Assembly (NCBI GenBank): GCA_000165345.1 | Contig: CM000431.1 | Coordinates: 32,001-96,000, forward strand | DNA length: 64,000 nt | Direction of reading: 5' to 3' | Shown: positions 50,146 through 52,326 of the stretch, piece after piece | How the letters are laid out: each line of letters opens with the position of its first letter | Numbering within the stretch: position 1 is the first letter of the stretch | Notes under the pieces: model-generated | Told to the model about the DNA's origin: nothing | The model's input: only the letters and a program-made list of their open reading frames with translations | Databases searched by the model: none | Translations under genes and position numbers: made by a program

Positions 50146-50350
50146 TTAAAATAAAGAATTAAGGTAAGGTTTTGACCTCCAAACGTCTTAGGGATTTAAG
50201 CTTCGGGTTTCACCTCGAGCCTCAACCCTTTAAGGTTTTTTTTTTTTTTTTTTGAAATTTAAAGTTAAATAAATACTTAATTATAATAACCTAATAGCCT
50301 TTCAATCATAATTAATATAACCAATTTTATTACTAATTTTAACAAAATAA

Positions 50351-50390
50351 TAAGACTTTATATATATATATATATATATATATATATATA
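50351..50390. repeat. (TA)20 dinucleotide microsatellite, with an 18-nt poly-T tract nearby at about 50236-50253
   Basis: tatatatata is repeated four times at 50351-50390. t18 lies just after the minisatellite. Confidence 0.9.
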
Positions 50391-50450
50391 TGGTTTTAAT
50401 ATGATCACCAATAATATCAAGAAATTTATAATAAAAAAATTGACCAACTA

Positions 50451-52326
50451 TTAATATTCCCAAATCATCATTGCATTACTAATTGGATCATAATCATCAT
50501 TAACTTTCTCTTCTTCAACTTGAATTTCTTCAATTTGAATTTCTTCATATTCCTCTTTATTTTTATTATTATTCTTTTCATTATTTATAATTTCTTTATT
50601 ATCTCTCATTCTATCATTTAATAATTGTTTTATTTCATTTTTAAACATAATTAATTCAATTTTATTATATTTAATAATTTTATTATTATTATTATTATTA
50701 TTATTATTATCTAATTGTTCATTATTAAATATCTTATATTTTTGACTCATTTTTAAAATTAATAATGATAATAAATCAGAATTTATTAATTCAATTTCAT
50801 CCATTTCTTTTATTCTATTAATCATTAAATCAATTTCTTCTTTTATTTCTTCATCATTTTGATAATATTTTCCAAAATATAACATTATTTCAATTATTAC
50901 TTCTCCAATTAATTCTATATTTAAATTAATTCCATTATATTCATTATAATTATTTCCTCCAATTTTAATTTTATTTTTATAATAATAATAATAATAATTA
51001 TTATTATTATTATTATTGCTATTATTCATATTATTATTATTATCATCATAATCTTCAATATAATCATCATCTTCATTATTAATATCAACAATATTTTCTA
51101 TTGTTAATAATATTATTCTTATTAGTATATTATCCACTAGTTTTAATAATAATAACATGTTATTATTATTATTATTATTATTATTATTATTATTATTATT
51201 GTTATTATTATTAAAATGATTTATATTCAATAATAAAATTTGTATCATATCATTTATTATCATTAATACTTGTATTTTATTATAATTATAATAATAATTG
51301 TTATTATTATTTTCATCATTAATATTATAATTATTATCTGAATTTTTTTTTAATAATATCAAATTTTTATTTATATTATTATCATTAATATTATTTATTA
51401 TTATTGATGATAATCCTCTTAAATTAGGATGTATATTTCCAATTCTATAAATTCTCTCATTTTGTTTATTTTTCTTTAATATTATATTATTATTTATTAT
51501 CATTTTTTCATTTTTTTCTTCATTTAATATTGAACAATTTTCATCAATTATATTATTATTATTATTATTATTATTATTATAATATTGAAATCTATCATTT
51601 AAATTTTCATAATAATATTCAATCATATTATTATTAATATGATTCATTTTAATTCCATAATTCTTCATTATTAATATATAAAAATCTTTAAATTTTTTGA
51701 TTAATATTAATTCAATCATCTTCTTTTTAAGATTATTATTATCTTGATTTTTTAATAATAACATTGTTAAATTATTAATTTCTCTAATTATTATCAATTT
51801 TAAAATATAATCTTTATAATTCTTTTCAATCTCATTATTTAATAGATTTGAATAAATCTTTCTATTAAATTCCTTCTTGTCATTATTATTATTATTATTA
51901 TTATTATTATTGTTATTATTAATTATATTATCTAAATTAATATCAATACATTCTTGTTTATATTCTTTCATCATATTAATATAATTTTCATATTTAATAA
52001 TTCTTTTGATTAAATCATAATTAAATTTATATTCATCACTTTTAATTATTCCTAATTGATTATTATAAATTTCAAAATATTTATTAATTCTCTTTTTTAT
52101 ATTAATAATTTTAATATAAATTTGTTTTTTTATTGTATCATTCCATTCAAACATTATTTCTTTATGATCATTTATAAACCATTCCACAAAATCTATTTTT
52201 TCTTTATCTTTTCTTTTTCTTATACTTATTTTTCTTATTTCTTCCTTATCTTTTAATTCTTTTATTAATATCGTATCATTGATTGACATAATAATTAAAT
52301 CAATAATACTCTTTTCTTTATTCATG
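50451..52326 (-). CDS. Asn/Ile/Lys-rich low-complexity protein (at least 625 aa), truncated by the assembly gap. It is encoded by an ~15% GC island full of (AAT)n arrays
   Basis: Stop at 50451. The open frame runs continuously up to the N-run at 52327. It contains many poly-Asn runs (N12-N20) encoded by (att)n on the + strand at about 50680-50715, 50985-51030, 51160-51215, 51555-51590 and 51885-51925. The 'X' residues in the track ORF 50451..52850 are translated Ns. It may be the C-terminal continuation of the 52827..54267 ORF across the gap, on the same strand. Confidence 0.45.

What the first reader, a model, noticed from the sequence alone, without database searches (positions are those of the whole stretch)
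50221..52326. ~2-kb compositional island (~15% GC) of (AAT)n arrays encoding a poly-Asn/Ile/Lys protein, abutting the scaffold gap
From the poly-T and (TA)20 tracts at 50236-50390 to the gap, GC content collapses relative to the ~30-33% of the rest of the window. The minus strand carries an unbroken frame of at least 625 codons with at least 8 poly-Asn runs (up to N20), each encoded by perfect (att)n microsatellites on the + strand. This composition resembles Plasmodium or Dictyostelium low-complexity proteins and is atypical of the neighbouring genes. Three explanations are possible. It may be the low-complexity C-terminal half of the 54267 gene continuing across the gap; the strand is the same and AT bias already increases toward 52851. 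It may be an independent rapidly evolving gene. Or it may be a mis-joined contig. Trinucleotide arrays of this purity are hypermutable, and the gap was probably caused by them.
Basis: partly seen in the sequence, partly recalled or inferred. Interest (0 to 1): 0.55.

Follow-up and report, generated by a model that had tools for sequence, protein, structure and literature searches.

The report
Asn-rich tail of gap-split giant gene
The AT-rich, poly-asparagine block is the real C-terminal end of one ~9-kb Cryptosporidium parvum gene (cgd3_290) that the old reference assembly cut in two with a gap hiding 5.6 kb; this is an ordinary case of AT-biased mutation plus microsatellite slippage, already resolved in newer public assemblies.

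Summary
Window 50221-52326 has 13.2% GC against 30.9% for the window. The minus strand carries a stop-free frame of 624 codons plus TAA. It has 7 poly-Asn runs, the longest N18.

The window is chromosome 3 of the 2004 C. parvum Iowa II reference. The 500-N spacer is one of that assembly's physical gaps of unknown size. In four gap-free C. parvum assemblies the two gap edges lie 5,607-5,631 nt apart.

In three of those assemblies one uninterrupted ORF of 2,976-2,987 aa joins the 54267 gene (N-terminal 480 aa) to the Asn-rich block (C-terminal 624 aa). The independent-gene and mis-join options are rejected.

Collinear, syntenic orthologues of 2,520-2,953 aa exist in C. hominis, C. meleagridis, C. 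canis, C. felis and an unnamed species. The distant ones have no poly-Asn.

The runs sit in non-conserved linkers. They vary in whole codons between isolates and lie in a ~13-kb trough of synonymous-site GC (GC3 ~0.1). The trough spans the converging 3' ends of this gene and the SKI2-like helicase, and C. canis shares it. The protein has no recognisable family; a weak RME-8-like motif match is unconfirmed. Interest is low.

The parts
50451..52325 (-). 3'-terminal 624 codons plus TAA stop of cgd3_290. This is the Asn/Ile/Lys-rich C-terminal fifth of a protein of about 2,980 aa.
   Evidence: The frame is open. It is identical, apart from Asn-run lengths, to the last 624-633 residues of the 2,976-2,987-aa ORFs in closed assemblies. 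The cgd3_290 name is inferred from flanking qPCR primers and from the C. meleagridis orthologue cmbei_300290.
52327..52826 (.). 500-N placeholder gap. It stands for 5,607-5,631 nt of missing coding DNA (GC 17.3%), roughly residues 481-2357 of the same gene.
   Evidence: [quoted passage not shown]
52828..54267 (-). 5'-terminal 480 codons of cgd3_290, with the ATG at 54265-54267.
   Evidence: It is 46-97% identical to the N-termini of the orthologues P0001-P0004.
51159..51212 (-). Longest Asn run (N18): AAT codons with one AAC. It is N26 in assembly GCA_048859185.1, N9 in C. hominis and N7 in C. meleagridis.
51882..51920 (-). Asn run N13. It aligns mostly to gaps in all other species.
51552..51578 (-). 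Asn run N9. It is N10 in two other C. parvum assemblies.
50997..51041 (-). Asn runs N7 and N4, followed in the protein by a Tyr6 run at 50979-50996. C. meleagridis, C. canis and the unnamed (Logan) species are gapped across the N4 and N7 runs; C. felis aligns NN to the end of the N7 run.
51297..51311 (-). Asn run N5.
50682..50708 (-). Asn run N9. It is N10 and N11 in other isolates or species, and absent from C. meleagridis and the distant orthologues.
50214..50450 (.). AT-rich 3' intergenic or 3'-UTR stretch holding T18 (50236-50253) and (TA)16.5 (50359-50391).
46400..49213 (+). 3' two-thirds of the converging SKI2-like helicase gene cgd3_280. It lies in the same low-GC3 trough (GC3 0.09-0.13) and holds two N8 runs.

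Best explanation
The block is the C-terminal 624 codons of a single-exon gene of about 9 kb. The gene is cgd3_290, on Cryptosporidium parvum chromosome 3. It encodes a mostly helical protein of about 2,980 aa and unknown function, found so far only in intestinal Cryptosporidium species.

The 2004 Iowa II reference lost the middle 5.6 kb of this gene in a physical gap written as 500 N. The gene therefore appears as two unrelated ORFs.

The extreme composition is a regional property, not a gene-specific one. A trough about 13 kb wide has synonymous-site GC of roughly 0.08-0.13. It is centred on the converging 3' ends of cgd3_290 and the SKI2-like helicase cgd3_280.

Inferred mechanism: AT-biased substitution, or lack of GC-biased repair or gene conversion, has pushed the protein toward Phe/Tyr/Met/Ile/Asn/Lys (FYMINK). 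This is strongest toward the weakly constrained C-terminus. It has also created AAT-rich tracts. Replication slippage expands and contracts these in whole codons into poly-Asn runs. The runs sit in non-conserved linkers between conserved helices and are tolerated there.
For: **One gene.**
- Four closed C. parvum assemblies place window 52325 and 52828 at 5,607-5,631 nt apart, always a multiple of 3.
- Three of the four have one stop-free ORF of 2,976, 2,981 or 2,987 aa. Two are annotated that way.
- Orthologues are collinear from the first to the last residue: C. hominis (open ORF of 2,953 aa), C. meleagridis (2,846), an unnamed species (2,813), C. canis (2,520) and C. felis (2,833).
- Gene order NTF2 gene / this gene / convergent SKI2 helicase is conserved.

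**It codes for protein.**
- dN/dS between C. parvum and C. meleagridis is 0.15 at the N-terminus and 0.41 in the Asn-rich C-terminus.
- The three intact C. parvum assemblies differ only by 3n indels inside the Asn-coding AAT and Asn-Ile-coding AATATT arrays, with no substitutions.

**Composition drives the protein.**
- Gene GC falls from 0.25 to 0.13, and GC3 from 0.19 to 0.08, from 5' to 3'.
- FYMINK content rises from 0.36 to 0.67 in C. parvum. It stays at 0.29-0.37 in the unnamed species, whose gene is 38% GC and has no poly-Asn.
- Neighbouring genes have GC3 of 0.19-0.30, mostly 0.24-0.30.
- In this window, poly-Asn runs occur only inside the trough: in this gene and in the 3' part of SKI2. 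The ten other long ORFs have none.

**The runs are insertions.**
- Most poly-Asn columns align to gaps in the distant orthologues. Run lengths differ between C. parvum isolates, C. hominis and C. meleagridis.
- In the AlphaFold model of the C-terminal 624 aa, the runs fall in blocks with pLDDT 22-50. They lie between helices with pLDDT 62-86.

**The trough is conserved.** In C. canis GC3 falls from 0.52 to 0.15 along this gene. It rises from 0.08 to 0.41 back along SKI2. Flanking genes are at about 0.5.
Against: - No transcript or peptide data were available here. Continuous expression of the 9-kb ORF is inferred from conservation only. The 2012 qRT-PCR atlas had no assay for cgd3_290.
- One T2T assembly (GCA_035232765.1) has frame-breaking 1-nt deletions and a garbled stretch of about 130 nt in this gene. 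I read these as long-read errors but cannot prove it.
- The cause of the AT trough is not established. Candidates are mutation bias, absence of biased gene conversion, or a chromosomal feature.
- The general 5'-to-3' GC3 decline in other long genes of the window is weak: Spearman -0.38 on bins that are not independent.
- Both structure models have low confidence, with mean pLDDT 40 and 46.
Confidence: 0.88

Rival explanations
1. The Asn-rich ORF is an independent, rapidly evolving gene, separate from the 54267 gene.
For: Some public annotations still call only a fragment. GCA_015245375.1 annotates a 625-aa gene here, and GCA_035232765.1 a 438-aa gene. The fragment happens to begin with ATG at the gap edge.
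Against: In GCA_015245375.1 the ORF is in fact continuous for 2,976 codons. Orthologues in five species are single collinear proteins. The distant orthologues have Val, Ile or Leu where C. parvum has the 'start' Met.
Confidence: 0.02
2. The AT-rich block is a mis-joined contig that belongs elsewhere in the genome.
For: It abuts a scaffold gap, and its composition differs sharply from the flanks.
Against: Four independent gap-free C. parvum assemblies show the same order and orientation. So do C. hominis, C. meleagridis, C. canis and C. felis. The block aligns at 99.1-99.9% to the three closed assemblies compared, in a hit running continuously from 44001 through the helicase gene.
Confidence: 0.01
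3. The AT trough is more than neutral drift in a long, weakly constrained gene. It marks a positional chromosomal feature, such as a recombination or gene-conversion cold spot, or the still-unmapped centromere of chromosome 3. The Asn runs would be a by-product.
For: - The GC3 trough is V-shaped and crosses a gene boundary.
- It is centred on the convergence point.
- It is conserved at the same syntenic site in C. parvum, C. hominis, C. meleagridis and C. canis, although the genomic GC3 backgrounds differ widely (0.3 against 0.5).
- GC-poor troughs of this shape mark centromeres in some yeasts, and AT-rich cores mark Plasmodium centromeres. This rests on my own knowledge and was not checked here.
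- I found no paper that maps Cryptosporidium centromeres.
Against: - The whole trough is conserved coding sequence under purifying selection.
- The non-coding core is only 22 bp in C. canis and 43 bp in C. felis.
- C. felis and the unnamed species show little or no trough.
- Only one locus was examined, so 'one per chromosome' is untested.
Confidence: 0.1
4. The poly-Asn runs are kept by selection for a function, for example prion-like or phase-separating linkers, or flexible spacers, rather than being neutral slippage products.
For: The runs are strongly Asn-specific even though Ile, Lys and Tyr codons are equally AT-rich. The same argument has been made for P. falciparum (PMC4770516). Several runs sit at homologous positions in C. 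parvum, C. hominis and C. meleagridis.
Against: The runs are absent from the C. canis, C. felis and unnamed-species orthologues of the same protein. Their lengths vary freely even between C. parvum isolates, N18 against N26. They occur only where GC3 is lowest. Positions shared among the three close species are expected from common descent.
Confidence: 0.08

Closest known systems
Asparagine-rich low-complexity insertions in Plasmodium falciparum proteins (AAT-repeat slippage in AT-rich coding DNA)
   Same: - Homopolymeric Asn runs are encoded almost purely by AAT.
- They are embedded in very AT-rich coding DNA.
- They are inserted between conserved blocks and absent from orthologues in less AT-rich relatives.
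- They vary in length in whole codons between isolates.
   Different: In P. falciparum this is genome-wide: more than 40% of proteins carry low-complexity regions in a genome of about 19% GC. C. parvum is a low-LCR genome (under 20% of proteins; PMC4770516). Here the phenomenon is confined to a local trough of about 13 kb in a genome of about 30% GC.
Genes split or truncated by assembly gaps in the 2004 C. parvum Iowa II reference (GCA_000165345.1)
   Same: [quoted passage not shown] The authors of the newer assemblies describe truncated genes spanning gaps as a class (PMC12179316).
   Different: I found no paper that describes this particular gap or gene. Three of the public annotations seen here still carry fragmentary models: 625 aa, 438 aa, and a 1,667-aa C. 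hominis model with an invented intron.
RME-8 / DNAJC13 (endosomal J-domain protein with IWN repeats)
   Same: It is a large, mostly helical protein. One block of about 60 residues (LIWDQTVKNEV...W...EIQISDSVYFRLLI, residues 533-594) aligns with the first IWN motif region of real DNAJC13 fragments. The hhalign E-value is 0.019, identity is 28%, and 2 of 200 shuffled decoys score as well.
   Different: - No J domain and no Pfam RME-8_N match in any orthologue.
- A second, downstream block gave no collinear match.
- No significant internal IWN-type repeats.
- This is not a member on present evidence.
GC-poor troughs at centromeres of some yeasts, and AT-rich centromere cores of Plasmodium (my own knowledge)
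   Same: A V-shaped fall in synonymous-site GC over about 10 kb that crosses gene boundaries and is conserved between species.
   Different: The trough has almost no non-coding core. There is no evidence for one trough per chromosome and no CenH3 data. It is weak or absent in two species.

Membership tests
AT-bias-driven poly-Asn low-complexity insertions (Plasmodium type) | Homopolymeric Asn runs encoded mainly by AAT repeats | tested here: met
   Seven runs of N4-N18 coincide with (ATT)n arrays on the + strand. Single AAC interruptions occur in the two longest.
AT-bias-driven poly-Asn low-complexity insertions (Plasmodium type) | The host coding DNA is strongly AT-biased at synonymous sites | tested here: met
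   GC3 is 0.08-0.13 across most of the gene, against 0.19-0.30 (mostly 0.24-0.30) in neighbouring genes.
AT-bias-driven poly-Asn low-complexity insertions (Plasmodium type) | Runs lie between conserved blocks and are missing from orthologues with less biased DNA | tested here: met
   Most poly-Asn columns align to gaps, or to unrelated residues, in the unnamed species, C. canis and C. felis.
AT-bias-driven poly-Asn low-complexity insertions (Plasmodium type) | In-frame length polymorphism between isolates (slippage) | tested here: met
   All differences among three C. parvum assemblies are 3n indels in the arrays, for example N18 against N26. Two of the window's seven runs differ by one codon from GCA_031892065.1.
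RME-8 / DNAJC13 | Central J domain with an HPD motif | tested here: not met
   No DnaJ Pfam match in C. parvum or in three orthologues at E<=1. The only conserved HP motif (GNxHPN/S/C) lies near the C-terminus and lacks the Asp.
RME-8 / DNAJC13 | Match to the Pfam RME-8_N domain (PF19432) | tested here: not met
   No match for the full-length proteins at E<=1, nor for the isolated conserved segments of four species at E<=10.
RME-8 / DNAJC13 | IWN repeats | tested here: inconclusive
   One profile-profile match to a real IWN-1 region has E=0.019 and an empirical p of about 0.01. The downstream block and the internal-repeat tests were negative.
Centromeric AT-rich / GC-poor trough | V-shaped decline of GC3 in flanking genes, conserved in position | tested here: met
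   Seen in C. parvum, C. hominis, C. meleagridis and C. canis.
Centromeric AT-rich / GC-poor trough | A non-coding core of kilobase size | tested here: not met
   The intergenic spacer is 1.2 kb in C. parvum but 22 bp in C. canis and 43 bp in C. felis.
Centromeric AT-rich / GC-poor trough | Exactly one per chromosome, with CenH3 occupancy | not testable with these tools
   Only about 30 kb around this locus could be fetched per assembly, and no chromatin data were available.
Alpha-solenoid (ARM/HEAT-like) repeat proteins | Stacked helical-hairpin fold with significant structural matches | tested here: inconclusive
   The models are mostly helical but have mean pLDDT 40-46. Foldseek against the PDB gave only generic ARM/HEAT hits. 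None reached E<=0.001, and TM-scores were at most 0.17.

The most novel reading that the evidence does not exclude
The conserved, V-shaped trough of synonymous-site GC crosses the boundary between cgd3_290 and the SKI2-like helicase, about 80-90 kb from the end of chromosome 3. It may be the footprint of a positional chromosomal feature: a long-lived recombination or gene-conversion cold spot, possibly the unmapped centromere of chromosome 3. On this reading the poly-Asn tail is only its by-product.
Probability: 0.1. Interest if true: 0.6.

Novelty: new member of a known kind. Interest (0 to 1): 0.22.

Why it matters
**Practical value.**
- Anyone using the 2004 Iowa II reference sees two unrelated 'hypothetical' ORFs where there is one ~2,980-aa gene.
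- Three of the public annotations seen here still carry broken models of it.
- The AAT arrays are in-frame, isolate-variable microsatellites and could serve as typing markers.

**Biological value.** The locus shows that a Plasmodium-style Asn-rich low-complexity tail can arise locally in a genome otherwise poor in such regions. It appears wherever synonymous-site GC collapses, which supports a mutational rather than functional origin.

**Open question.** The only open question of wider interest is why a sharp, conserved GC3 trough sits at this syntenic site.

Tried and rejected
**Family searches on the two window ORFs and the full-length protein.**
- Pfam on both window ORFs, the full-length protein and three orthologues found no family.
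- PDB sequence searches with the single protein and with a 4-species profile found nothing at E<=1 and E<=10 respectively.
- A word-indexed homologue search with the N-terminal 480 aa found nothing, probably because low-complexity words saturated the candidate list.
- An exhaustive phmmer search of 1.84 billion representatives found only four Cryptosporidium clusters.
- A profile search added only C. meleagridis.

**Structure.**
- AlphaFold2 on residues 1-1190 (C. hominis sequence, 5-species alignment) gave mean pLDDT 39.9.
- AlphaFold2 on the window's C-terminal 624 aa gave mean pLDDT 45.9.
- Foldseek against the PDB gave only non-significant generic alpha-solenoid hits.
- The AFDB library was not available.

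**RME-8/DNAJC13 idea, prompted by IW[ND]-type motifs.**
- Real DNAJC13 fragments were retrieved.
- One motif block matched weakly.
- The internal-repeat test was negative.
- The downstream-block test was negative.
- Pfam on the isolated segments was negative.
- This is kept as a lead only.

**Literature.**
- Searches for Cryptosporidium centromere maps found nothing.
- Searches for RME-8 in Cryptosporidium or other Apicomplexa found nothing useful.
- A search for cgd3_290 found nothing specific.

**Gap cause.** I tested the idea that an array caused the gap. Both gap edges lie in ordinary sequence.
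Full report
**1. The observation**

Window 50221-52326 is 13.2% G+C against 30.9% for the whole window. It is the lowest of all 2.1-kb windows, whose mean is 31.3% with sd 3.8%.

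On the minus strand, 50454-52325 is 624 sense codons ending in TAA at 50451-50453. The frame runs open into the N-gap. The other two minus-strand frames hold 88 and 198 stops.

The product is 24.5% Asn, 16.8% Ile and 10.7% Lys. It has seven Asn runs of at least 4 residues, with lengths 13, 9, 5, 18, 4, 7 and 9. Each coincides with an (ATT)n array on the + strand.

- GC is about 13%, not 15%.
- There are 7 runs, not at least 8.
- The longest run is N18, not N20.
- The dinucleotide tract is (TA)16.5, not (TA)20.

The gap is 52327-52826, exactly 500 N, which is a conventional placeholder.

**2. Where the window comes from**

The 1,439-aa SKI2-like helicase at 44894-49213 is encoded identically on ~1.10-Mb chromosomes of three C. 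parvum assemblies. These are GCA_015245375.1, GCA_031892065.1 and GCA_035232765.1.

Published qRT-PCR primers place the neighbouring genes as follows:

| Gene | Window coordinates |
|---|---|
| cgd3_250 | the ORF at 31983-34358 (-); its primer maps at 34096 |
| cgd3_260 | 35742-39284 |
| cgd3_270 | 40411-43803 |
| cgd3_280 | the helicase, 44894-49213 |
| cgd3_300 | NTF2-domain gene, 54870-56354 |
| cgd3_310 | RCC1 gene, 57618-63254 |

The 1,180-aa kinase with EF hands matches the description of cgd3_260 in PMC3227725.

The gene between cgd3_280 and cgd3_300 is therefore cgd3_290. This is an inference, and it fits the C. meleagridis orthologue name cmbei_300290.

The window is the 2004 Iowa II reference. 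[quoted passage not shown]

**3. What lies in the gap**

In four gap-free C. parvum assemblies, window bases 52828 and 52325 are separated by 5,607, 5,613, 5,625 or 5,631 nt. Each is a multiple of three, and the hidden DNA is 17.3% GC.

In three of the four, one uninterrupted ORF starts at the ATG corresponding to window 54267 and ends at the TAA corresponding to window 50451. It is 2,976, 2,981 or 2,987 codons long. Two assemblies annotate it as a single gene.

The window's two ORFs are thus residues 1-480 and the last 624 residues of one protein. About 1,870 codons are missing between them.

The fourth assembly (GCA_035232765.1) has several 1-nt deletions and a garbled stretch of about 130 nt. 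I read these as long-read errors in this AT-rich stretch.

Both gap edges lie in ordinary AT-rich coding sequence, not in a microsatellite. The sequence does not show that the arrays caused this gap.

Four independent short-read assemblies do end at residues 1845-1888. That is at or just before an internal (AAT)n(AATATT)n array.

**4. Orthologues and synteny**

An exhaustive phmmer search with the N-terminal 480 aa against 1.84 billion representative proteins found only four clusters, all Cryptosporidium:
- C. hominis: 97% identity, a 1,667-aa model.
- An unnamed species from a public read set: 67% identity, 2,813 aa.
- C. canis: 56% identity.
- C. felis: 46% identity, 2,833 aa.

A profile search added C. 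meleagridis at 2,846 aa.

The C. hominis model is short only because the annotators inserted an intron. The 8,862-nt span is one open frame of 2,953 codons.

Gene order NTF2 gene / this gene / convergent SKI2 helicase is the same in C. hominis, C. meleagridis, C. canis and C. felis.

The proteins align end to end. Four of the five share the C-terminal motif (Y/F)DPISNAMMIWEY or a close variant; the 2,520-aa C. canis model ends before it. This rules out both the independent-gene and the mis-join readings.

**5. Why the tail looks the way it does**

*Composition along the C. parvum gene.* From 5' to 3', GC falls from 0.25 to 0.13 and GC3 from 0.19 to 0.08. Asn rises from 8% to 28%. FYMINK residues rise from 36% to 62-67%, while GARP residues fall from 10% to 3-5%.

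*Contrast with the unnamed species.* Its orthologue is 38% GC. FYMINK stays flat at 29-37%, and there is no poly-Asn run.

*The bias is regional.*
- Ten other long ORFs in the window have GC3 of 0.19-0.30 and no poly-Asn.
- The converging helicase gene drops abruptly to GC3 0.09-0.13 from about codon 500 and has two N8 runs.
- In closed coordinates the trough is about 13 kb wide and V-shaped around the point where the two genes converge.

*The trough in other species.*

| Species | GC3 pattern |
|---|---|
| C. canis | 0.52 to 0.15 along this gene; 0.08 to 0.41 back along the helicase; flanks about 0.5 |
| C. hominis | Similar to C. parvum |
| C. meleagridis | Similar along this gene; the helicase 3' part is less depressed (GC3 0.20-0.23) |
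| C. felis | Mild, confined to this gene |
| Unnamed species | Only a slight 5'-to-3' decline (GC3 deciles 0.54 to 0.37) |

*Position of the runs.* They fall where the distant orthologues have gaps or unrelated residues. In the low-confidence AlphaFold model of the C-terminal 624 aa, they lie in blocks with pLDDT 22-50. The helices between them reach pLDDT 62-86 and correspond to the conserved blocks.

*Length variation.* Run lengths differ between C. parvum assemblies (N18 against N26, N9 against N10), C. hominis (N9) and C. meleagridis (N7). Every difference among the three intact C. parvum assemblies is a 3n indel inside an array.

*Selection.* dN/dS against C. meleagridis is 0.15 in the N-terminal 480 codons and 0.41 in the C-terminal part. 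The tail is still under purifying selection, but it is relaxed.

*Shown and inferred.* Shown: one gene, a regional GC3 trough, and runs that are lineage-specific, linker-located and length-variable. Inferred: AT-biased substitution created AAT-rich tracts, and replication slippage expands them. This is the standard explanation for Asn-rich low-complexity regions in P. falciparum.

C. parvum as a whole is poor in such regions (under 20% of proteins; PMC4770516).

**6. What the protein is**

No Pfam family matched either window fragment, the full-length protein or three orthologues. No PDB sequence matched the single protein or the profile.

The models are mostly helical but of low confidence. 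Foldseek against the PDB returned only generic ARM/HEAT-type solenoids, none at E<=0.001.

I noticed IW[ND]-type motifs resembling the IWN repeats of RME-8/DNAJC13 and tested the idea:
- A remembered human fragment retrieved 61 real DNAJC13 exon fragments carrying Pfam PF19432.
- Their profile, aligned to the six-species Cryptosporidium profile, hit residues 533-594 as the top match. That gave 61 columns, 28% identity and E=0.019.
- 2 of 200 column-shuffled decoys scored as well.
- There is no J domain and no PF19432 match, even on the isolated segments.
- A second, downstream block gave only noise.
- Internal-repeat tests were negative.

I keep this as an unconfirmed lead, with about 15% probability. 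I do not file the protein as RME-8. It remains a genus-restricted, uncharacterised, mostly helical giant protein.

**7. Comparison with what is known, and verdict**

The closest known phenomenon is the AAT-encoded Asn-rich insertion of P. falciparum proteins. All four defining features tested here are met. The difference is that the phenomenon is local here rather than genome-wide.

The split into two ORFs is an artefact of the 2004 assembly, and public long-read assemblies already resolve it. I found no paper discussing this specific gene or gap. Three of the public annotations seen here still carry fragmentary models.

Novelty is therefore 'new member of a known kind', and interest is low.

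The one feature I cannot explain is the sharp, syntenically conserved V-shaped GC3 trough. It might reflect a recombination or gene-conversion cold spot, or even a centromere. However, it is fully coding, has almost no non-coding core in C. canis and C. felis, and could not be compared with other chromosomes here. I give that reading about 10%.

Noticed in passing
window 49377-50215: A 36-bp minisatellite with consensus GCCTTTAAGAGTTGGCTTGGGGTTTCAGGCTTTCTG, about 20 degenerate copies and about 36% GC. It fills most of the 1.2-kb spacer between the converging stop codons of cgd3_280 and cgd3_290. It is found nowhere else in the window and no ORF runs through it. The equivalent spacer is about 0.8 kb in C. 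hominis, 236 bp in C. meleagridis, 22 bp in C. canis and 43 bp in C. felis, so it is specific to the parvum/hominis lineage.
   Followed up: partly
window 46400-49213 (cgd3_280, SKI2-like helicase): GC3 drops abruptly from 0.25-0.32 to 0.09-0.13 at about codon 500 and stays low to the stop. Two N8 runs (AAT arrays at 47517-47543 and 48779-48802) lie in this part. The same trough is seen in C. hominis and C. canis and, more weakly, in C. meleagridis (helicase GC3 0.20-0.23).
   Followed up: partly
L003/L007 (GCA_035232765.1, CP141120.1), locus L007 about 16720-19500: In this telomere-to-telomere assembly the gene carries at least six 1-nt deletions, many next to short A/T runs, and a garbled insertion of about 130 nt around residue 2420. 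These break the ORF into pieces of 1,563 aa and shorter, and only a 438-aa gene is annotated. They look like unpolished long-read errors.
   Followed up: partly
L015 10001-18862 (C. hominis TU502_2012, OLQ16604.1): The 1,667-aa public model skips about 1,290 codons as an 'intron', although the whole 8,862-nt span is one open frame of 2,953 codons. This is an annotation artefact.
   Followed up: yes
L001/L005 (GCA_015245375.1, CP044420.1): The IOWA-ATCC reference annotates only a 625-aa C-terminal fragment, apparently inherited from the gapped 2004 model. Its own sequence has a continuous 2,976-codon ORF.
   Followed up: yes
window 52326 and 52827: The single bases flanking the N-run ('g' and 'c') do not match the closed assemblies. 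The alignable sequence ends at 52325 and resumes at 52828. The C-side contig ends exactly at an in-frame ATG (MNKEKS...), which may explain why a fragment was annotated as a gene.
   Followed up: partly
window 44894-46200 (5' part of cgd3_280): An acidic Glu-rich repeat sits at the N-terminus (EEEEEEEGVEEEGVEEEEVEGEED). A degenerate QE(D/E)P(N/S/T)-type repeat, about 12 units, lies at residues 379-440, inside the helicase core between the DEAD and Helicase_C domains.
   Followed up: no
cgd3_290 residues 2654-2658 (window about 51426-51440): The motif G-N-x-H-P is invariant in all orthologues (IYRIGNIHPNLR). It superficially resembles the YRKLALKYHPD helix II-III junction of J domains, but it lacks the Asp and gives no Pfam DnaJ match.
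   Followed up: partly
L012 (Logan SRR31860986 contig, 12.3 kb): An unnamed Cryptosporidium-like species has a full-length orthologue (2,813 aa, 67% identical at the N-terminus). Its DNA is much more GC-rich (gene 38%, flanks 43%) and it has no poly-Asn. The species was not identified.
   Followed up: no
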